A stretch of 64,000 nucleotides of DNA. Origin: Escherichia phage vB_EcoM_G2494. The notes under the pieces are model-generated. The model saw only the letters and a list, made by a program, of their open reading frames with translations. It did not search any database and had not been told where the DNA came from. Every line of letters starts with the position of its first letter. Within the stretch, counting starts at the first letter, position 1. The position numbers and the translations under genes are program-made. Positions 3,564-60,126 of this stretch are shown here, piece after piece. The stretch lies in the sequence record MK327935.1. One strand, given 5' to 3'.

Positions 3564-3591
3564 ATTATACATTAGCTAATCAGGTTGTCAA
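3564..3591 (-). promoter_or_regulatory. sigma70-like early promoter (TTGACA-16-TATAAT)
   Basis: Minus strand reads TTGACAacctgattagctaatgTATAAT; member of a repeated promoter family. Confidence 0.6.
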
Positions 3592-3628
3592 CACCCCAAA
3601 ACGAAAAAGCCGACCCTTTCGGATCGGC
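3592..3628 (-). terminator. rho-independent terminator downstream of nrdD
   Basis: Minus-strand RNA hairpin gccgaucc-gaaa-gggucggc followed by UUUUUCGUUUU; 6 nt after nrdD stop. Confidence 0.6.
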
Positions 3629-3634
3629 TGAAAA

Positions 3635-5497
3635 TTACATGTGCTTAACGCGGTTTACCATCTCGGAGTGTTTCCCGTGGTTAAATGGACGCAGATCAAC
3701 AGATCCAAGATATCCACTAACGCGACGGATAACATTCATCTTTTCCAGATTGTCATTGCCGCAATCAGGACAAACAAAACCAGACTCGGTCGCTCTCATT
3801 TCCTTATTAGATCCGCATACATGACATACATCAGAAGGAGTATTAACACCGAAGTAGTGCAATTTATCCATTGCATAGTCCACTACAGTTTCAAGACCTT
3901 TCAGGTTGTTTTTCATGTCTGGGAACTCAACATAAGAGATCATGCCACCGGACGCCAGCCAGTGATAATCTTTCTCAAAGTCGATTTTCTCAAATGGAGT
4001 GACTTTCCGGTCTACGTCAAGGTGGAATGAGTTGGTGTACCAGTCTTTATCGGTAGCACCCTTAACAATACCAAATTGCTCTCGGTCCAGTCGATTAAAT
4101 CGATAGCAAAGGCTCTCGGCTGGCGTACCGTAAAGACTAAACCCAAGTCCGGTTTCGTCCTTCCATTTTTCAGTATAATGACGCAAGATCTTAAGAATAT
4201 GTTTACCGTATCGCTGCGCATCTTCCGAATCAAACGGATGAACATCAAACAGGACGCTCAATACCTCATGTAAACCAATATATCCAAGAGAGATACTAGC
4301 GCGACCATCTTTCAGAACTTCCAAAATTTCATCGTTTTGATGAATACGGAAAAACGCACCTTCGGTATACAGTACAGGAGCAACATTAGCTTTAGCGCCT
4401 TTTAAAGCGTCTACGCGACTCATGAGCGCATCAAAACAAATAGGCATACGATTAGCTAGCTCTTGTTCGAATAGCTCAATTCTGCGCATTACAGACGCTT
4501 TACCAGCACGACGCGCGGCAATAAGGGCAATACGCGGAAGATTCAGAGTCACAACACCTAAGTTATTACGTCCGTCTAATACTTCTTCGCCTTTCTCATT
4601 ATGCCACACACCCAGGAAGCTACGACAACCCATCGGGCTAACCGGAACACTAGATCCAGTGATACTACGGTTATTCTTCGCAGAGATATAATCAGGGTAA
4701 AGACGCTTACTAGAACATTCCAATGCAAGTTGCTTAATGTCGTAGTTCGGATCTTCCGGTTTAAGGTTTAATCCTTCTTCTAAGAACATCACCAGCTTAG
4801 GAAACACCGGAGTGATACCATCTTTACCTAAACCTTTAGTTCGAACTTTCAGGATCGCTTTCTGAATCAGTTTTTCTTCCCAGCTAGTCCCCATACCAAA
4901 TGTTAAAGTCACAAAAGGTGTTTGACCGTTGGTGGAGAACAAAGTGTTGATTTCATATTCCAACGCTTGATACCCGTCTAGCGTTTCTTTTTCTGTCTTC
5001 TCTTGTGCATAGAGAGTATCCGCTTTGATTCCGTAGGTTTCGGCATCAGCAAGGTGTTTATGATATGTTTTCTCAACATACGGTGCTAACACCTGATCGA
5101 TGTTTGCAATTGTGGTCCCGCCATATTGATGACTTGCCACCTGTGCGATAATTTGAGCGGTTACAGCACATGCAACACCGATCGATTTAGGACTTTCGAT
5201 TTGTGCGCTACCCAATTTAAAACCATTCTCTAACATGTCTTTGAGATTAACAAGACAGCAGTTAGTAAACGGCATAGCGGGTGCATAATCCATATCATGA
5301 TAATGAATGTCACCGTCTACATGCGCTTTATAGATGTGCTCAGGTAACACGGTTTTAGCAATCTGTTTAGACACAGCACCAGCAATCAGATCTCGACGTG
5401 TCGGGAATGTTCGCGCGTCTTTGTTCGCGTTCTCTTTGCTTACTTCGTTTTCTTTACCCGTTGCGATCTCTGTAATGTCTTTGATTAGTTTTTCCAT
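3635..5497 (-). CDS. nrdD: anaerobic ribonucleoside-triphosphate reductase
   Basis: 620 aa; resembles T4 NrdD along its length; C-terminal glycyl-radical motif RRVSGYLG and Cys-x2-Cys zinc site; no intron interruption. Confidence 0.9.
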   Translation of the reverse strand: MEKLIKDITEIATGKENEVSKENANKDARTFPTRRDLIAGAVSKQIAKTVLPEHIYKAHVDGDIHYHDMDYAPAMPFTNCCLVNLKDMLENGFKLGSAQIESPKSIGVACAVTAQIIAQVASHQYGGTTIANIDQVLAPYVEKTYHKHLADAETYGIKADTLYAQEKTEKETLDGYQALEYEINTLFSTNGQTPFVTLTFGMGTSWEEKLIQKAILKVRTKGLGKDGITPVFPKLVMFLEEGLNLKPEDPNYDIKQLALECSSKRLYPDYISAKNNRSITGSSVPVSPMGCRSFLGVWHNEKGEEVLDGRNNLGVVTLNLPRIALIAARRAGKASVMRRIELFEQELANRMPICFDALMSRVDALKGAKANVAPVLYTEGAFFRIHQNDEILEVLKDGRASISLGYIGLHEVLSVLFDVHPFDSEDAQRYGKHILKILRHYTEKWKDETGLGFSLYGTPAESLCYRFNRLDREQFGIVKGATDKDWYTNSFHLDVDRKVTPFEKIDFEKDYHWLASGGMISYVEFPDMKNNLKGLETVVDYAMDKLHYFGVNTPSDVCHVCGSNKEMRATESGFVCPDCGNDNLEKMNVIRRVSGYLGSVDLRPFNHGKHSEMVNRVKHM

Positions 5498-5507
5498 TGT
5501 ATCACCT

Positions 5508-5532
5508 ATGAAAAAGCGGGATTTCTCCCGCT
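5508..5532 (-). terminator. hairpin plus U-run immediately 5' of nrdD ribosome-binding site (terminator or attenuator-like)
   Basis: Minus RNA agcggga-gaaa-ucccgcu then UUUUUC, then AGGTGA SD and nrdD ATG. Confidence 0.45.
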
Positions 5533-5541
5533 CGTTGATAG

Positions 5542-6036
5542 TTATTTTACCAGTTCTGCTAATTCTTTTTCCGCCGCTTCCAGTTCAGCTTTAAGCTGTT
5601 TAATCTCTTGTCGCTTCTTATTAGCGGCTTCCTGCTTACTATTTCGGATAACCTGATCTAGATACAACTCCCAATCCTGAATATTTTTGATAATGTATCC
5701 GTCAACATTAATTGGTCGGAGATTCAGTACAGCTTCCAGTTTAGTCGCAAAAACTTTAATTGCTGGTGTGAAGTATTCATATTCGTTATCTTCAAACCAA
5801 TAACCTAGACTTGCATTATCAATACGAAGACGAAGTTTAAGATCAAGGTCTTTATCGTCGGTGTAAAGATCTTTCACCTGCCCCATCGAGCTAACAACAA
5901 CTTTAAAACGAATTTTATCTACACCGCCAAAAACATCTTCAAGAATATCAGCAATTGAGCTATTAGCGCAAGATTGGTCGCTGAATGCGTCAAGGTTTTC
6001 TTTAGTTACAGTATACCAAACATCTTGTACCCACAT
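5542..6036 (-). CDS. hypothetical protein
   Basis: ORF track 164 aa; start preceded by GAGGATTATATTATG context. Confidence 0.55.
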   Translation of the reverse strand: MWVQDVWYTVTKENLDAFSDQSCANSSIADILEDVFGGVDKIRFKVVVSSMGQVKDLYTDDKDLDLKLRLRIDNASLGYWFEDNEYEYFTPAIKVFATKLEAVLNLRPINVDGYIIKNIQDWELYLDQVIRNSKQEAANKKRQEIKQLKAELEAAEKELAELVK

Positions 6037-6066: not shown

Positions 6067-6094
6067 ATTATAGCATACTCCCTTCGCATGTCAA
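6067..6094 (-). promoter_or_regulatory. sigma70-like early promoter with inverted repeat across the -10
   Basis: Minus strand TTGACAtgcgaagggagtatgcTATAAT; inverted repeat gggagta...tactccc. Confidence 0.55.
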
Positions 6095-8242: not shown

Positions 8243-8716
8243 CTATCTTAATCTTTGTATAAATTGTTTCTTATACTTCTTCGTGATTTCTTCTCGTGTA
8301 TCAGCGTCGCAGTAATCGAAACCTTCTGCGTCCATAATAGCAACCATCTCCGCGCGTGTCAAGCGTGAAAATCGTTTTACTTTATCAACAGCATATTGAG
8401 GATGTAAATGATTGTCGGTGTAGTCTCCTTTGATGTAATTAACATAGTTTGTAGCCCAAACAACGAAATCAGCACCTAAAGCACCAACACCAAACCGTTT
8501 AAAGTCTCCGGTCAACGATCCTTCTAGGCGGTTGCAACACGAATGAAGCAATCCCCTTACGCGGCCTTGCCCTTTCCCATCTAGATCGTGGTCGTGGTCA
8601 AGATGGTTTTTGCTCATATCCTCAAAAAGTGGCAATTGACAAAGGGGGCAAATGCCCCCCTGTTTTTCGAATAGTTCTTGTTTGTACTCTTTAGCACTCT
8701 TAGCAGTCAGTAACAT
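8243..8716 (-). CDS. 49: endonuclease VII (Holliday junction resolvase)
   Basis: CPLCQ...NHLDHDHDLDG...RGLLHSCCN resembles T4 gp49 zinc/HNH-like core; start refined to MLLT (157 aa) with GGAGGG SD. Confidence 0.85.
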   Translation of the reverse strand: MLLTAKSAKEYKQELFEKQGGICPLCQLPLFEDMSKNHLDHDHDLDGKGQGRVRGLLHSCCNRLEGSLTGDFKRFGVGALGADFVVWATNYVNYIKGDYTDNHLHPQYAVDKVKRFSRLTRAEMVAIMDAEGFDYCDADTREEITKKYKKQFIQRLR

Positions 8717-15951: not shown

Positions 15952-15980
15952 ATTATGCTATACCATATTCCGGTTGTCAA
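15952..15980 (-). promoter_or_regulatory. sigma70-like early promoter (TTGACA-17-CATAAT)
   Basis: Minus strand TTGACAaccggaatatggtatagCATAAT. Confidence 0.55.
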
Positions 15981-15985
15981 CACCT

Positions 15986-16020
15986 AAAAACGAAAAAGCC
16001 ACCCTTTCGGATGGCTTTTT
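15986..16020. terminator. bidirectional rho-independent terminator (conserved hairpin family)
   Basis: gccaccc-tttc-ggatggc flanked by A-run upstream and T-run downstream; same motif as 3592-3628 and 21826-21857. Confidence 0.55.
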
Positions 16021-31206: not shown

Positions 31207-31461
31207 ATGACAGAAGACATTTTGTTAAAACTCTATGATCGTTTGGACAACGAATTGGCAACATTGCGGGGTGAAGTTCTCTATTTGTCTAAATGCAATA
31301 CAGATCTGCTTAAGCAGATTGCAGAAAGGGATGATCAAATAAAATCCCTTTCAGGTGCATTACGTGATCGCGACAAGGCATTAGAGATTTTACAGCGTGT
31401 TACCAATAAGGAAGAATTAAAAGACTTCTTACATGGTTATGCTCATGCTATCGATCTATAA
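31207..31461 (+). CDS. hypothetical coiled-coil protein on opposite strand between genes 3 and 2
   Basis: ORF track 84 aa; GAGGA SD 7 nt upstream of ATG; preceded by a 189-bp intergenic region. Confidence 0.4.
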   Translation: MTEDILLKLYDRLDNELATLRGEVLYLSKCNTDLLKQIAERDDQIKSLSGALRDRDKALEILQRVTNKEELKDFLHGYAHAIDL

Positions 31462-31486
31462 TAAAAAAAGCCCGTCAATGACGGGC
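31462..31486 (-). terminator. rho-independent terminator downstream of gene 2
   Basis: Minus RNA gcccguc-auu-gacgggc followed by UUUUUUUAUU. Confidence 0.55.
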
Positions 31487-31492
31487 TTAATG

Positions 31493-32314
31493 TTATGCAT
31501 CCTTCCAAACTTTCCTTGCGTCGTATTTCTTGCCTTTTGACATAAACTGATATGTCGGCATATAGATAATATTGCTCCAGTCTTTCGGGCTAATCTCAAC
31601 AAGTTTTGTTTTAATGTGTCCCGGTAGATATGCTTTGATCATGTGATCACTTCCACGCATACCTTTTACATCGCTCCATTTGATTTTTAAGCGTGTTTTA
31701 TTGCTCAAGGTAGGAGTAGATGCATATTGCTTTAAAAGTGCTTCCAGAAACTGCTGACGGGCTTTAGGCGTTACATAGTGTAAGTTAAGACCCAGCATTA
31801 CAGTATTACCCGCCTTTGTCTTAGAATCACCCAGACAAATGATCAGCGGGAAAACATCCCAATATGGCAAAGTGTCTTTATACTTCGCATCATACATAAA
31901 GGTATAGATTCGCCCTACTTGCGGTTTTACAATCTGGTGTCCCTTTATTCCCGCTTTTATTGTTTTAGTAAACCACTCCTGTGATTTTTCTTTAGGACGA
32001 CTCTTTGATACAGCACGCATAGACGCACGAAAATCATTAATCATCATCATTGCGCGTTGCTGCTTATTGAGACCCTTTGCGCCTTTCCCTTTTAGTTTTT
32101 CAACTTCTATTGCTGTTTTAATTTCGCTGGCATAACGAGACATACTTTTAGTGAAAGTCGCATAGGCTATTCCCTTAGAATCTGCAAATGCTTTAGCTGT
32201 CATGCCTTTGGCTTTTGCTTTCGCAAATTCTACACCCAATTCGACCCACTGTTTAGACTTTCGTTTTTGGGGAGACGGCTTTTCGTCTTCTGTGATTATT
32301 TCAAATACGCTCAT
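31493..32314 (-). CDS. 2: DNA end protector protein
   Basis: 273 aa (T4 gp2 is 274 aa); synteny. Confidence 0.7.
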   Translation of the reverse strand: MSVFEIITEDEKPSPQKRKSKQWVELGVEFAKAKAKGMTAKAFADSKGIAYATFTKSMSRYASEIKTAIEVEKLKGKGAKGLNKQQRAMMMINDFRASMRAVSKSRPKEKSQEWFTKTIKAGIKGHQIVKPQVGRIYTFMYDAKYKDTLPYWDVFPLIICLGDSKTKAGNTVMLGLNLHYVTPKARQQFLEALLKQYASTPTLSNKTRLKIKWSDVKGMRGSDHMIKAYLPGHIKTKLVEISPKDWSNIIYMPTYQFMSKGKKYDARKVWKDA

Positions 32315-35852: not shown

Positions 35853-36605
35853 ATGAGGTGTTTTATGATTAAAGTGCATGACGATTTCAAAGAACTTTAT
35901 AATGTATGCTCTGAACGTTTTTATTATGATGAAACGAGCGGAACAATTAGACGAAAATATGATTGTAAGAGCAATCATTATAAAGCGGGTGATGTAGTAG
36001 GATATAAAAGAAAACAAAAAAGAACAAATAGTGAAGATGATGTGTTCTATATGTTTACTAAGATTGATGGAGTTTCTTATTCAATTCAACAAATTGTCTT
36101 CTTGCTTACCGAAGGGTATATACCCAATTGCATCGATCATATTAACAGAGACACACTAGATAATCACCGTGAAAATCTTCGTGATGCATCGCGAAGCGGA
36201 AATGCTCGCAATAAATGCAAGGTATATAAAAATGGTTTCGCCTCTTCCGATTACATTGGTGTGTCTAAGCGGGGTTCTGGATTTAGGTGTCGTATTAGAA
36301 TAGACCATGTTATTGCATATGATGAAACGTTCGAAAATGAAACATCTGCCGCATATGCATATAACGTAGAATGTATAAAATTAGGTGTCAGTGAGTATAC
36401 CAACTTTAATAAATTTGAAGACGAAGAATCTGTTAGGAAACTTTACGAAAAAGAGAAAGAAAATAAAGAGTTTCAAGAATATTGGAAGGGAACACATAAA
36501 CAGGGTAAACGATGGGGCGCTAAAGTTAAGAGTGTGCGTTTGGGTACATTCGAAACAAGGGAAGAAGCTAGACTAGCTATAATTCGCTACAAAGAGGGGT
36601 TTTGA
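35853..36605 (+). CDS. HNH homing endonuclease (AP2/HNH_3-like), freestanding
   Basis: 250 aa; [21 protein letters not shown] motif; inserted between 5.1-like gene and gp5.4; own CATAAATA/TATAAT-like upstream signals. Confidence 0.75.
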
Positions 36606-36898: not shown

Positions 36899-38799
36899 CA
36901 AAGCAAAAGATTACACAAATTCCTGATATTTTTAATGCTGCTACATTCGATGAAATTAAAAGCGCATTAACAGACTGGATGAGAAACCAGGAAGAATTTA
37001 AAGATTTTGATTTTAATGGTGCTGGTATTAACGTATTGATGGACTTGCTCGCATATAACACTCTGTATATTCAGCAATTCGCTAACGCCGCGCTATATGA
37101 ATCTTTTATCAGAACGGCAATTAAGCGTAGTTCAGTTGTTCAAGCCGCGCAAGATTTAGGATATTTGCCAGCAAGTAAAACTAGTGCATCGACCACAATT
37201 ATGTTGCACGTATCACATCCGCGAAATCCGGCAAGTATTCGAATCCCACGAGGAACTAAATTTATTGCAAGTGTGGATCGCCAGACTTCTTACCCGTTTG
37301 TGACTACAGAAGACGTTGTGAGCGTTTTAGGTTCAAATGGTTTATATACGCCTATGCTTAAAGTCGCACAAGGTCGTATTGTTCGTACAGAAATGTTATT
37401 TGATCCGAAGAAACAAATTCTGATCCGTGATCCTGATATTGACCGCGCTCAGGTTAAGTTGTGGGTAGATGGTGCTGAATGGAAAGACTGGACACGAGAA
37501 AGCATTGTTAACGCAACTGGCGCTAGTAATATTTTCTATATGCGTGAAACCGTAGACGGTCATACAGAAATCTTCTTTGGTGAAGGTGAATCAACTTTAT
37601 CTGCTGCTGGCGGGGCGCTGGAAGCAAATTATATTGGTGGACTTAAGCCGTCAACTGGTGCTAATATTGTTATCGAATATATTAGCACTAAAGGCGCGGA
37701 AGCAAACGGTTCAGTTAATTTTACATATGCGGATACCCTTGCATCTATCTCTATTGTTAAAATTATTGAGAATCCGACAAATGATCGTGATTATGTCGGT
37801 GCAGATGGTGGTGGTGATCCTGAATCAATCGAACGTATCCGTGAACTTGCTCCGGTAATGCGTGAATCTCAGCGTCGTTGTGTGACTGCTTCCGACTATG
37901 AGGCTTTTGTGTCTAGCCGTTTTGGTAGTATTGTTCAGGCGGTACAATGTTTCACCGACCGAGAAAAACCGGGTTATGCTTTTGTTGCTGTTAAGCCTAA
38001 ATCTGGCTTGCGCTTGACAACCGTTCAAAAAGAAGATATGCGGGATTATCTGGCAAAATATAACCTTGCCCCTATCACGCCGAGCATCATTGACCCTAAC
38101 TATCTGTATATTAAACAGAATATTAAAGTTTCCTATTCAATCAACGACTTGTCAGAATCAGAGCAGTGGTTGCGCGGTGCGGTTATTGATCAGATTGATG
38201 CATATTATACCGACGAAGTGGAAATTTTTAACCAGACCTTTAGTAAGTCTAAAATGCTTGCGCGTATTGACAAAGCTGATGTATCTGTGATAGGTTCTAG
38301 TGCAGAAATCGAGATGGTGCGCGAGATCGACAACTTCTATAAAGCACCGATGGCGGGAATCAAGTTTTTAAACCAGTATAAGAGCGGAATCAAGTCTAGT
38401 TCATTCAACTTCGAAAAGGACGACAAGCAATATCCGATCCATTATGTAAGTACAGAAATGAACAAAGAATCAGGTTTAGCTAAATTGTTGGTTGGACCTT
38501 TCCCTGTTGATTCTACAATCGCTTTACCGCACTATTCCGGCACTGATTTTGATAAAGAGGTTATTGACGGGGCGGACCTATACTTTGAGGTTGGAGAAGT
38601 TCAGCATTATGACGACCTTATTTCATGGGATCTGGGTAAACTGAATATCAATAGCGATCGCTTTACTGGTTCATATATTGAGTTGACAGCTAAACCGATT
38701 GCTGATAACATCTTTACTAAAGACGGTTCTTTGATCGTGTTTGAAAACGATCTCCGTCCTCAGTACACAACTATTAGTCTGGAGGCAATTGCTCAATGA
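36895..38799 (+). CDS. 6: baseplate wedge protein gp6
   Basis: 634 aa; synteny and size (T4 660 aa). Confidence 0.8.
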
Positions 38800-50960: not shown

Positions 50961-50986
50961 TAAAGGGGCGTTAAGCCCCTTTTCCG
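50961..50986 (+). terminator. hairpin/terminator after wac
   Basis: aggggc-gttaa-gcccct followed by TTTTCCGTTT. Confidence 0.45.
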
Positions 50987-51001
50987 TTTATAGGTGATAT
51001 T

Positions 51002-51934
51002 ATGTCAGGATATGTAACCAATAACCCAAGAGAATTAAAAGACGCTATTCTGCGTCGTTTAGGCGCACCAGTAATTAACGTAGAAGTCACAGAAGACCAG
51101 ATTTACGATTGTATTCAGAGAGCACTAGAACTCTATGGGGAATATCATTTCGATGGTGTGAATAAAGGATATAAAGTATTTCGTGTTAGTGCAGAGCAAG
51201 CGCAACATGGGGTATTTGATTTAAGCGATTCTGGTGTATTCGCAGTAACTAAAATAATTCGAACAAACGTAGGTAGCGCGGCTACGATGGATGGCACTGC
51301 CGTTTATCCGTGGTTTACCGACTTTCTGTTGGGTTTAGCGGGTGTAAATGGCGGTTTAGGATCTGGCTGTAGTAAATTTTATGGTCCAAATGCAATGGGC
51401 GGTGATCTAGGATATTTCGAACAGCTTATGAGCTATCGAGCCACTATGCAAAATATGCTCAATCCGCTGCCAGACTATTGGTATAATAGCGCAAACGGAC
51501 AACTTAAGATTACAGGAAACTTCCGAGAAGGTGATCTCATTGTTGTTGAATTATATGTTAAAAGCTATATAGACGTTCCTGATATGATCGGCGCGGTTGC
51601 TGGTTATGCTCATGCAGGAGGATGTTCTACCGCTGGCGGGATTAGCGCCGTTTATGATAATCCAACTGCTGGTTTAAGCGGGATTGTTGCTGGAATGGGA
51701 CCGATCCGTGATAACAAGCAGGGCGCATATAATAACCGTTGGGTTAAAGACATGGCAACCGCTTTCACTAAGGAGGTTTGGGGGTCCATCATGGCTAAAC
51801 ATCAAGGTCTGCAATTACCCGGCGGTGTCACTGTTGATGGTATCCGAATCATTGAAGAAGCACGCGCCGACATTGAGAAATTGCGACAAGAACTAGAATT
51901 ATTAGATCCTCCGTTCGGCATCCTCATGATTTGA
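51002..51934 (+). CDS. 13: neck protein gp13
   Basis: 310 aa (T4 309 aa); synteny. Confidence 0.75.
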
Positions 51935-60053: not shown

Positions 60054-60086
60054 TCAGTAAATTAGCATAGATTAAAAGTTAAATCA

Positions 60087-60107
60087 AGCGGGGAGAAAAT
60101 CCCCGCT
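60087..60107 (+). other. GC-rich stem-loop downstream of gene 18 (no U-tract)
   Basis: agcgggga-gaaaa-tccccgct; similar hairpins follow gene 19 (60634-60652) and gene 13 (51941-51956). Confidence 0.4.
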
Positions 60108-60126
60108 CTATTAAGGAATATCAATT

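What the first reader, a model, noticed from the sequence alone, without database searches (positions are those of the whole stretch)
5508..5532. Terminator-like hairpin directly abutting the nrdD ribosome-binding site
A 7-bp hairpin followed by UUUUUC lies in the 44-nt gap between the upstream gene stop and the nrdD start, ending about 6 nt before the AGGTGA SD. No promoter box is visible between it and nrdD, so nrdD expression would need read-through; this is an attenuator-like arrangement. Near-identical hairpins (gcc-N-ccc-tttc-gg-N-ggc) recur at 3592-3628, 15986-16020 and 21826-21857.
Basis: seen in the sequence. Interest (0 to 1): 0.4.

Follow-up and report, generated by a model that had tools for sequence, protein, structure and literature searches.

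The report
Ordinary terminator hairpin upstream of nrdD
A short stable RNA hairpin followed by a run of U's sits between an orphan gene and the anaerobic ribonucleotide reductase gene of an RB49-like coliphage; it is an ordinary transcription terminator, already predicted and annotated, that RNA polymerase must partly read through for nrdD to be expressed.

Summary
The hairpin is real. It lies on the minus strand: GAGCGGGA-GAAA-UCCCGCUU at 5533..5514, followed by UUUUUC. It starts 8 nt after the stop codon of a 164-aa ORFan and ends 6 nt before the nrdD Shine-Dalgarno. It folds far better than shuffles (z -4.9). Hairpins of this class are about 20-fold enriched in the window.

The window is a Krischvirus (RB49/Phi1/JSE type). 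The same site was already predicted as a Rho-independent terminator in RB49 (TransTerm, Nolan et al. 2006, "nrdD<--RB49ORF057c"). Several GenBank records annotate it as "terminator".

The 16 nt between stem and AUG hold no promoter, and the upstream ORF holds no sigma-70 or late promoter. The nearest is a perfect consensus promoter at 6094..6067. nrdD therefore most likely depends on read-through. I found no antiterminator fold, Rfam match, NrdR box or FNR box, so regulated attenuation is unsupported.

In 22 T4-like relatives nrdD overlaps gene 49 (ATGA) and has no hairpin. In Krischvirus, four ORFs with their own promoters lie between the two genes, and the hairpin closes that block. Read-through is plausibly helped by the ribosome terminating 8 nt upstream.

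Verdict: a known kind of element, already annotated, of low interest.

The parts
5514..5533 (-). Stem-loop GAGCGGGA-GAAA-UCCCGCUU. The core stem is 5531-5526/5521-5516 and the loop is 5525-5522.
   Evidence: Sequence. Present in the MFE and centroid structures, with pair probabilities 0.88-1.0. The stem is invariant in the 14 Krischvirus sequences read, and the 53-nt region is 96-100% identical in 58 records.
5510..5515 (-). U-tract UUUUUC. Its first two U's can also pair at the base of the stem.
   Evidence: Sequence. Phage kvi has UUUUUA here.
5542..5544 (-). UAA stop codon of the upstream ORF, 8 nt 5' of the stem.
   Evidence: The distance lies in the range where a terminating ribosome represses a terminator in E. 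coli (PMC4824070).
5542..6036 (-). 164-aa ORFan (RB49 ORF057c; phrog_15067) whose transcript the hairpin terminates.
   Evidence: No match in Pfam, PDB or NCBIfam.
6067..6094 (-). Perfect sigma-70 promoter TTGACA-16-TATAAT with TG. It is the nearest promoter able to drive the 164-aa ORF and nrdD.
   Evidence: It corresponds to the RB49 predicted promoter Pe:36999.
5502..5507 (-). nrdD Shine-Dalgarno AGGUGA. A5507 and G5506 can pair with U5540 and C5541 at the base of an extended helix.
3635..5497 (-). nrdD, the anaerobic ribonucleoside-triphosphate reductase gene.
   Evidence: Pfam NRDD 7e-175 and Gly_radical 5e-23.
3608..3629 (-). Stronger terminator hairpin 5 nt after the nrdD stop. It closes the transcription unit.
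   Evidence: TransTerm confidence 100 in RB49.
3564..3591 (-). Consensus promoter that follows the downstream hairpin; hairpin plus promoter form a PeSL cassette.
   Evidence: It corresponds to RB49 Pe:34495.
5544..5552 (-). Extended -10-like motif TGGTAAAAT in the last codons of the 164-aa ORF. It is only a candidate weak promoter, relevant to one rival explanation.
   Evidence: Untested.

Best explanation
The element is a Rho-independent (intrinsic) terminator. It ends the transcript of a small ORFan cassette, made of promoter 6094..6067 and the 164-aa ORF, that lies immediately upstream of nrdD in RB49-like phages (Krischvirus).

It is leaky. Polymerases that pass it transcribe nrdD, which has no promoter of its own and is closed by a stronger terminator at 3629..3608. 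The hairpin therefore acts as an internal operon terminator. It lowers nrdD transcription relative to the upstream ORF and gives the short ORFan mRNA a protected 3' end.

Leakiness is expected for two reasons. First, the terminator is modest: a 6-8 bp stem, and five U's followed by C and then the purine-rich SD instead of a long U/T-rich tail. Second, the stop codon is only 8 nt upstream, so a ribosome finishing the ORF close behind the polymerase would cover the 5' arm of the stem and block hairpin formation.

Shown here: the anatomy, its non-randomness, its conservation, the absence of a promoter, and the comparative history. Inferred: termination itself, its efficiency, and the ribosome effect.
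For: Anatomy and stability:
- Searches give the structure, with z -4.9.
- The hairpin class is enriched: 15 sites against 0.75 expected.

Independent predictors agree:
- TransTerm gives confidence 98 at RB49 36406..36422, named 'nrdD<--RB49ORF057c' (Nolan et al. 2006, PMC1524935, Additional file 6).
- ARNOLD gives -13.7 in the phage G5211 record.
- 'terminator' features are annotated in the GEC-3S, TB34, G2248, G37-3 and Makalu records.

No promoter between 6067 and the nrdD start:
- Searches find none here.
- The same is true in the published RB49 promoter tables.

Conservation:
- The 53-nt region is 96-100% identical in 58 Krischvirus records.
- In the 14 sequences read, every difference lies in the loop, the spacer or the tail, and none in the stem.
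- There are no substitutions in the 44-nt gap in 8 genomes, where the divergence of the first 698 nt of nrdD would predict about 8.

Relative strength:
- It has the lowest hairpin-plus-U score of the minus-strand terminators (17 against 27-45).

Ribosome occlusion:
- In E. coli, terminator tR2 is almost fully repressed 5-9 bp after a stop codon and reaches maximal efficiency only beyond about 30 bp (PMC4824070).

History:
- In 22 T4-like loci, gene 49 overlaps nrdD by ATGA and there is no hairpin.
- Here gene 49 (8716..8243) is 2.7 kb upstream, and four ORFs with their own promoters intervene.

Related experimental result:
- A stem-loop of an RB49/phi1 PeSL cassette terminated about as well as rrnB T1 in a reporter (PMC2839356).

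Generic design:
- The identical 21-mer (hairpin plus T5) occurs intergenically in a Morganella phage and in three unrelated viral contigs.
Against: - No transcript data exist for this or any Krischvirus in the literature I could search. Neither termination nor read-through has been observed.
- There is too little sequence variation for a covariation test.
- Every terminator in this window sits 4-12 nt after a stop codon. Ribosome occlusion is therefore not special to this site and cannot explain by itself why this one should be leakier.
- An extended -10-like motif (TGGTAAAAT, 5552-5544) lies just upstream of the hairpin and could give nrdD some transcription of its own.
- My strength score uses a formula recalled from memory (d'Aubenton-Carafa type) with modern energy parameters, so only the ranking is meaningful.
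Confidence: 0.6

Rival explanations
1. nrdD has its own weak, -35-independent promoter. The extended -10 motif TGGTAAAAT (5552-5544), in the last codons of the upstream ORF, would start RNA near A5536, 3 nt before the stem. The hairpin would then also be a 5'-terminal stem-loop that stabilises nrdD mRNA against 5'-end-dependent decay, while still terminating transcripts arriving from upstream.
For: - The motif is present with the critical -11A and -7T and with TG at -15/-14.
- TGNTAWAAT is enriched in the window: 27 sites against 11.2 +/- 3.9.
- TGGTAAAAT also lies 36 nt and 30 nt upstream of two other early-strand start codons (22285 and 24723), both in intergenic DNA.
- Aeh1 has TACAAT just 5' of its own hairpin before nrdD.
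- From my own knowledge: 5'-terminal stem-loops with four or fewer unpaired 5' nucleotides stabilise E. coli mRNAs such as ompA.
Against: - The motif is coding sequence (L-V-K-stop), and most TGNTAWAAT hits lie inside genes, so the enrichment may reflect codon usage.
- The -35 match is poor (CGGAAA).
- No published RB49 promoter prediction covers it.
- RNA starting there would still have to pass the U-tract about 25 nt later.
Confidence: 0.12
2. The hairpin does not terminate appreciably in vivo. It acts after transcription as an RNA stability or processing element: a barrier to 3' exonucleases for the upstream segment after endonucleolytic cleavage, or a structure that modulates nrdD translation because its extended base pairs with the first two SD nucleotides.
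For: - The extended helix CUAU/AUAG pairs A5507 and G5506 (probability 0.88).
- The predicted unpaired probability of the SD rises from 0.09 to 0.36 when the 5' arm is scrambled.
- Two other hairpins in the window directly abut a ribosome-binding site: wac-to-13 at 50962-50982, and 18-to-19 at 60086-60108, which lacks a U-tract.
- A ribosome sitting 8 nt upstream may suppress termination almost completely.
Against: - A five-U run placed exactly at the stem end is the signature of termination and is not needed for a stability hairpin.
- Two dedicated terminator predictors call the site.
- The outer helix is not conserved: Sf20 has U5540C.
- The fold predictions are equilibrium thermodynamics only.
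Confidence: 0.13
3. It is a regulated attenuator or a translational operator. A phage or host factor, or oxygen status, would control read-through or ribosome binding at nrdD, by analogy with the T4 gene 43 operator, which is a hairpin next to the ribosome-binding site.
For: - The hairpin position next to the ribosome-binding site resembles the T4 gp43 operator layout (PMC3014915).
- RB49-type phages lack MotA-dependent middle promoters, so delayed expression may rely on read-through (PMC1524935).
- Aeh1 and two metagenomic phages also carry a hairpin before nrdD.
Against: - No alternative fold.
- No Rfam hit.
- No NrdR or FNR box.
- The loop varies (GAAA or GAAAA) between close relatives.
- The hairpin is absent from 27 of 33 diverse nrdD loci.
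- The identical hairpin occurs at unrelated loci in unrelated phages.
Confidence: 0.05
4. It is mainly a DNA-level relic: the stem-loop half of a PeSL cassette left at the edge of an inserted ORFan block. It would persist as a recombination substrate or by hitch-hiking rather than for an RNA function.
For: - It closes a 2.7-kb block that is absent from T4-like relatives.
- Its tail plus SD (UUUUUC-A-UAGGUG) resembles the UUUUUCGUUUUUAGGUG that precedes the -35 box in the PeSLs at 15980 and 28950.
- The neighbouring ORF shows an allelic cassette swap.
Against: - The swap breakpoints lie at about 6040 and about 5700, not at the hairpin.
- The stem is invariant while the loop, spacer and tail vary.
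- The shared TAGGUG is only 6 nt and is also a Shine-Dalgarno sequence.
Confidence: 0.08

Closest known systems
Predicted Rho-independent terminator 'nrdD<--RB49ORF057c' of phage RB49 (TransTerm; Nolan et al. 2006, Virol J 3:30, Additional file 6), and the 'terminator' features in the GenBank records of G5211, GEC-3S, TB34 and the Makalu phages
   Same: It is the same element at the orthologous position. The stem is identical; RB49 has one extra A in the loop.
   Different: Nothing structural. Those sources only list coordinates and do not comment on nrdD lacking a promoter.
PeSL cassettes (promoter-early stem-loop) of RB49/phi1 (Arbiol et al. 2010, PMC2839356)
   Same: It is an intergenic G+C-rich stem-loop in a hyperplastic region next to an ORFan, followed by an SD and an ATG. 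The GAAA loop and UUUUUC tail match the PeSL hairpins at 3629 and 16020.
   Different: It lacks the defining sigma-70 promoter. The stem sequence is unrelated to the GCC...GGC PeSL stems. No recombination breakpoint was seen at it.
Internal (intercistronic) partial terminators that set expression ratios within operons. Examples from my own knowledge: E. coli rplL-rpoB and rpsU-dnaG. Example from the literature search: ABC-importer operons of Clostridia (PMC9045158; seen by title and abstract only).
   Same: The terminator sits between two co-directional genes with no promoter after it, so the distal gene depends on read-through.
   Different: Read-through has been measured in those systems and not here. 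Here the two genes are not known to be functionally related.
Ribosome-occluded terminators close to stop codons (Li et al. 2016, PMC4824070; pyrBI attenuator)
   Same: The stop-to-stem distance is 8 nt, inside the repressed range of 5-9 bp.
   Different: The upstream ORF is a full 164-aa protein, not a leader peptide. No regulatory input is evident. All terminators in this window share the short distance.
T4 gene 43 translational operator (hairpin adjacent to the ribosome-binding site; PMC3014915)
   Same: A hairpin lies just 5' of the SD of a nucleotide-metabolism or replication gene.
   Different: The gp43 operator has no U-tract and has a specific conserved loop. Here the loop length varies and a U-tract is present.
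Lambdoid 'morons' (a promoter-ORF-terminator unit inserted between conserved genes)
   Same: A promoter, an ORFan and a terminator lie between genes that are adjacent in relatives.
   Different: G+C content was not examined here. Nolan et al. argue that T4-like novel ORFs are generally not moron-like in composition.

Membership tests
Rho-independent (intrinsic) terminator | G+C-rich stem of about 5-14 bp with a 3-8 nt loop | tested here: met
   The stem has 8 bp: 5 G-C pairs and 1 A-U pair in the core, plus an outer A-U and an outer G.U. The loop is GAAA. Energy is -13.3 to -15.4 kcal/mol and z is -4.9.
Rho-independent (intrinsic) terminator | Run of U's starting at or within 2 nt of the 3' end of the stem | tested here: met
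   UUUUUC follows directly after the G-C core. The tract is shorter than at the other minus-strand terminators, and the built-in scan misses it because of its stem-extension rule.
Rho-independent (intrinsic) terminator | Lies downstream of, and in the same direction as, a coding region | tested here: met
   It starts 8 nt after the UAA of the 164-aa ORF, on the same strand.
Rho-independent (intrinsic) terminator | Called by dedicated terminator predictors | tested here: met
   TransTerm gives confidence 98 in RB49. ARNOLD gives -13.7 in G5211. These are taken from the literature and database records, not re-run here.
Rho-independent (intrinsic) terminator | Transcript 3' ends at the U-tract in vivo or in vitro | not testable with these tools
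   No transcriptome or Term-seq data for a Krischvirus were found.
PeSL cassette (Arbiol et al. 2010) | Near-consensus sigma-70 promoter (-35 and -10 boxes) in the same intergenic element | tested here: not met
   The 44-nt gap has no promoter. The nearest -35/-10 pair is at 6094..6067.
PeSL cassette (Arbiol et al. 2010) | Stable stem-loop, then the SD and ATG of the next gene, located in a hyperplastic region beside an ORFan | tested here: met
Classical transcription attenuator (leader peptide, riboswitch or protein-mediated) | Alternative antiterminator structure mutually exclusive with the terminator | tested here: not met
   The terminator is kept in the MFE and centroid folds of the 81-nt and 201-nt contexts, with pair probability about 1.0. 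There is no competing helix and no Rfam match.
Classical transcription attenuator (leader peptide, riboswitch or protein-mediated) | Located in a 5' leader between the promoter and the first gene, with a short leader ORF or a ligand- or protein-binding domain | tested here: not met
   It is intercistronic, lying after a full 164-aa ORF.
Internal operon terminator (leaky intercistronic terminator) | Terminator between co-directional genes with no promoter before the distal gene | tested here: met
Internal operon terminator (leaky intercistronic terminator) | Measured partial read-through that sets the expression ratio of proximal to distal gene | not testable with these tools
   This needs RNA quantification on both sides of the hairpin.
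Host-type anaerobic control of nrdD (FNR or NrdR operator) | FNR box TTGAT-N4-ATCAA or NrdR box near the gene | tested here: not met
   No match within 3 mismatches (NrdR) or 1 mismatch (FNR) anywhere near nrdD. Both consensus sequences come from my own knowledge.

The most novel reading that the evidence does not exclude
In RB49-type phages, which lack MotA-dependent middle promoters, terminators placed a few nucleotides after stop codons could act as translation-gated valves. Polymerase would pass this hairpin only when a ribosome is finishing the upstream ORF close behind it. The dose and timing of nrdD would then be set by transcription-translation coupling on an unrelated ORFan. This would replace the ancestral direct translational coupling of nrdD to gene 49. 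The same hairpin might also cap the 5' end of transcripts from an extended -10 promoter.
Probability: 0.12. Interest if true: 0.4.

Novelty: already known. Interest (0 to 1): 0.15.

Why it matters
It matters little beyond genome annotation. It does show that in Krischvirus nrdD is the distal gene of a two-gene unit driven by an ORFan's consensus promoter. It also shows how insertion of promoter-ORF-terminator blocks between genes 49 and nrdD rewired a gene that is translationally coupled to gene 49 in T4-like relatives.

If read-through were shown to depend on translation of the upstream ORF, the site would be a natural phage example of a ribosome-gated terminator. That would also bear on how phages without middle-mode promoters delay or dose gene expression.

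Tried and rejected
- Covariation test. Twelve Krischvirus sequences were aligned and two more read. The region is 96-100% identical in 58 records and the stem never varies, so no compensatory changes can be scored.
- Conservation with nrdD across T4-like phages. Of 33 IMG/VR loci, only the 2 Krischvirus loci and 2 metagenomic contigs have a hairpin within 200 nt upstream. The others abut or overlap the upstream gene. It is therefore not an nrdD-specific regulatory device.
- Rfam at a permissive threshold. Only a chance intron fragment inside nrdD was found.
- NrdR and FNR boxes. None near nrdD.
- Late promoter TATAAATA and weaker variants between 6110 and 5498. None.
- Antiterminator alternative fold. 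None.
- PeSL membership. Rejected for lack of a promoter.
- The hairpin as a recombination breakpoint. The mosaic segment in FL20, JK32, Brandy and Makalu001 ends inside the ORF at about 5700, not at the hairpin.
- Horizontal mobility. A 26-nt exact match in Morganella phage vB_Mm5 first suggested it. The same 21-mer also occurs as a generic terminator in three unrelated viral contigs, and partial matches occur in many unrelated phages. Convergent terminator design is the simpler reading.
- Function of the 164-aa ORF. No informative match in Pfam, PHROGs, NCBIfam or PDB sequences.
- Desplats et al. 2002 (PMC135041) is not held in the library.
- Literature searches found no Krischvirus transcriptome.

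Full report
**What is there.**
The genes in this part of the window run on the minus strand.
- nrdD is 5497..3635 (620 aa; Pfam NRDD 7e-175 and Gly_radical).
- The preceding ORF is 6036..5542 (164 aa; phrog_15067, no known function).
- The 44-nt gap between them reads, on the minus strand, UAA-CUAUCAAC-GAGCGGGA-GAAA-UCCCGCUU-UUUC-AU-AGGUGA-UACA-AUG.
- The stem is 5533-5526 paired with 5521-5514, the loop is 5525-5522, and the five U's are 5515-5511.
- The SD is 5507-5502 and the AUG is 5497-5495.

**Is it more than chance?**
- The 36-nt intergenic RNA folds at -15.4 kcal/mol against -4.4 +/- 2.2 for shuffles (z -4.93; 0 of 200 as good).
- The hairpin is kept in the 81-nt and 201-nt contexts, with pair probabilities near 1.
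- A strict census requires at least 6 bp, at least 4 G-C pairs, -11 kcal/mol or lower, and a T-rich tail. It finds 15 sites in the window against 0.75 +/- 1.0 in dinucleotide shuffles, mostly in the 7% of the window that is intergenic.
- The built-in scan does not list this site. It extends the stem over two U's and then finds too few U's in the tail.

**Where the window comes from, and prior knowledge.**
The region is 95-99% identical to 56 RB49/Phi1/JSE-type phages of the genus Krischvirus. The hairpin is not new.
- Nolan et al. 2006 list a TransTerm terminator at RB49 36406..36422 (-), confidence 98, named 'nrdD<--RB49ORF057c' (PMC1524935, Additional file 6).
- Several GenBank records annotate it as a terminator, for example ARNOLD -13.7 in G5211.
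- The same paper's promoter tables place early promoters at 36999 (before ORF057c) and 34495 (after nrdD), with nothing in between.

**Promoters.**
Only 16 nt separate the stem from the AUG. On the minus strand the nearest promoter is a perfect TTGACA-16-TATAAT with TG at 6094..6067, about 30 nt before the 164-aa ORF. Between it and nrdD there is:
- no sigma-70-like site of 9/12 or better at normal spacing;
- no T4-type late box.

The one candidate is an extended -10-like TGGTAAAAT at 5552-5544, inside the last codons of the ORF and upstream of the hairpin.

The likely unit is therefore P6094, the 164-aa ORF, this hairpin, nrdD, and then a stronger hairpin at 3629..3608. That second hairpin is immediately followed by another consensus promoter at 3591..3564.

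**The other hairpins.**
- The sites at 3629..3608 and 16020..15993 are each followed within 12-16 nt by a consensus promoter. They are the PeSL cassettes described for RB49/phi1 (Arbiol et al. 2010, PMC2839356).
- The site at 21859..21835 follows a vs.6-like Gly-radical ORF and, like the nrdD site, has no promoter after it.
- These three stems resemble each other (GCCrAUCC...GGrUyGGC). The nrdD stem (GCGGGA/UCCCGC) is different and shares only the GAAA loop and the UUUUUC tail. 'Near-identical' is therefore overstated.

By a hairpin-plus-U score the nrdD site is the weakest of the minus-strand terminators: 17 against 27-45. The formula was recalled from memory, so only the ranking is meaningful. 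Its distal tail is the purine-rich SD rather than more U's.

**Conservation.**
- The 53 nt around the gap are 96-100% identical in 58 Krischvirus records.
- In the 14 sequences I read, the differences are GAAA versus GAAAA in the loop, an extra A after the stop codon, U5540C in the spacer (Sf20), and C5510A at the end of the tail (kvi). None touches the stem.
- Eight genomes show no substitution in the 44-nt gap. The divergence of the first 698 nt of nrdD predicts about eight.
- This is consistent with constraint, but the genomes are closely related and not independent. No covariation test is possible.

**Comparative history.**
- In 22 T4-like loci from IMG/VR, the gene just upstream of nrdD is the 157-aa endonuclease VII gene 49. 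It is 41-46% identical to window 8716..8243, and its stop overlaps the nrdD start (ATGA). There is no hairpin.
- In this window gene 49 lies 2.7 kb upstream. Four ORFs, with promoters at about 8239, 7329 and 6094, are inserted between it and nrdD. The hairpin is the last element of that block.
- nrdD thus probably never had a promoter of its own here. It changed from being coupled to gene 49 to sitting behind the terminator of an ORFan cassette.
- A hairpin before nrdD also occurs in Aeh1 (GAAA loop, U5CU4, no promoter between) and in two metagenomic contigs. It is absent from 27 of the 33 loci, so it is not a conserved nrdD control element.

**Mechanism.**
The best reading is a leaky intrinsic terminator inside a two-gene unit. 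Two features favour leakage:
- its modest strength;
- the stop codon lying 8 nt before the stem.

[quoted passage not shown] It reached its maximum of about 0.9 only beyond about 30 bp. The repression vanished when translation was uncoupled (Li et al. 2016, PMC4824070).

The caveat is that every terminator in this window sits 4-12 nt after a stop codon. This is a general property of the compact genome rather than a special device at nrdD.

I found nothing that suggests regulated attenuation:
- no competing fold;
- no Rfam family;
- no NrdR or FNR box.

In equilibrium folds, an extension of the helix (CUAU/AUAG) pairs the first two SD nucleotides. Scrambling the 5' arm raises the SD unpaired probability from 0.09 to 0.36. 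Sf20 breaks one of those pairs, so I give this little weight.

**Generic design.**
The exact 21-mer GCGGGAGAAATCCCGCTTTTT occurs in several unrelated places:
- between unrelated genes in Morganella phage vB_Mm5, where 26 nt are identical and it again abuts the next ribosome-binding site;
- in three unrelated viral contigs, flanked by A and T runs;
- as partial matches in many unrelated phages.

This is what one expects of a convergent, generic terminator.

**Verdict.**
The element is already predicted in the literature and annotated in databases. No transcript data exist, so termination efficiency, the ribosome effect and the candidate extended -10 promoter remain untested. Interest is low.

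Noticed in passing
window 6040-5700 (-), compared with L039, L040, L041 and L042: The 164-aa ORF exists as two alleles within Krischvirus. FL20, Brandy, Makalu001 and JK32 are only 44-76% identical over the first ~340 nt of the ORF. They are 100% identical in the promoter-bearing intergenic region on one side, and from about 5690 through the hairpin on the other. This looks like a cassette swap with one breakpoint at the P6094 PeSL.
   Followed up: partly
window 8716-5498 (-): In T4-like relatives, gene 49 (endonuclease VII) overlaps nrdD by ATGA. Here four ORFs (90, 194, 392 and 164 aa), with their own promoters, lie between the two genes. Two of them (194 and 392 aa) are goF/frd.2-like paralogues.
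   Followed up: partly
window 60086-60108 (+): The hairpin between the tail sheath gene 18 and the tube gene 19, AAGCGGGGAGAAAAUCCCCGCUC, is a near-copy of the nrdD hairpin with one extra G-C pair. It has no U-tract and ends 4 nt before the SD of gene 19. Its function is unknown.
   Followed up: no
window 50962-51004 (+): The wac-to-gene-13 terminator hairpin is followed by UUUUCCGUUUAUAGGUGAUAUUAUG. The 10-mer ATAGGTGATA occurs only twice in the window, here and at nrdD, each time between a hairpin and a start codon with no promoter.
   Followed up: no
window 5552-5544, 22329-22321 and 24761-24753 (-): TGNTAWAAT (extended -10-like) is enriched: 27 sites against 11.2 +/- 3.9 in shuffles. TGGTAAAAT lies 47, 36 and 30 nt upstream of the starts of nrdD, a vs.6-like Gly-radical ORF and an ORF starting at 24723. 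This may be a -35-independent promoter class in a phage group without middle promoters, or it may be a codon-usage artefact.
   Followed up: partly
window 2227-1724 (-): nrdG (Fer4_12/radical SAM activase) is not adjacent to nrdD. Three ORFs, a terminator and a consensus promoter (3629-3564) separate them, so the reductase and its activase lie in different transcription units.
   Followed up: no
window 27013-26992 (-): A terminator hairpin with a C(UUCG)G tetraloop (AAGCCACUCUUCGGAGUGGCUU, then U's) is followed by a consensus promoter. My crude ORF map places it inside a called 65-aa ORF that is probably spurious or mis-started.
   Followed up: no
L047 2309-2373 (-) (Aeromonas phage Aeh1): Aeh1 nrdD is also preceded by a GAAA-loop hairpin (CGAGUC-GAAA-GACUCG) with a UUUUUCUUUU tail and no promoter before the AUG. 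A TACAAT hexamer lies just 5' of the stem.
   Followed up: partly
L048 2495-2545 (+) (Morganella phage vB_Mm5): A 26-nt stretch identical to the nrdD hairpin plus tail (AGCGGGAGAAATCCCGCTTTTTCATA) lies between a clamp-like gene and a small ORF, again directly before the next ribosome-binding site.
   Followed up: partly
window 31468-31488 (both strands): The hairpin GCCCGUCAUUGACGGGC has a long U run on the minus strand, after the 273-aa ORF 32314..31493. It lies just beyond the end of an 84-aa ORF called on the opposite strand (31207..31461). Nolan et al. list a terminator 'RB49ORF130w-><-2' in RB49 that may be the same site; I did not map it.
   Followed up: no
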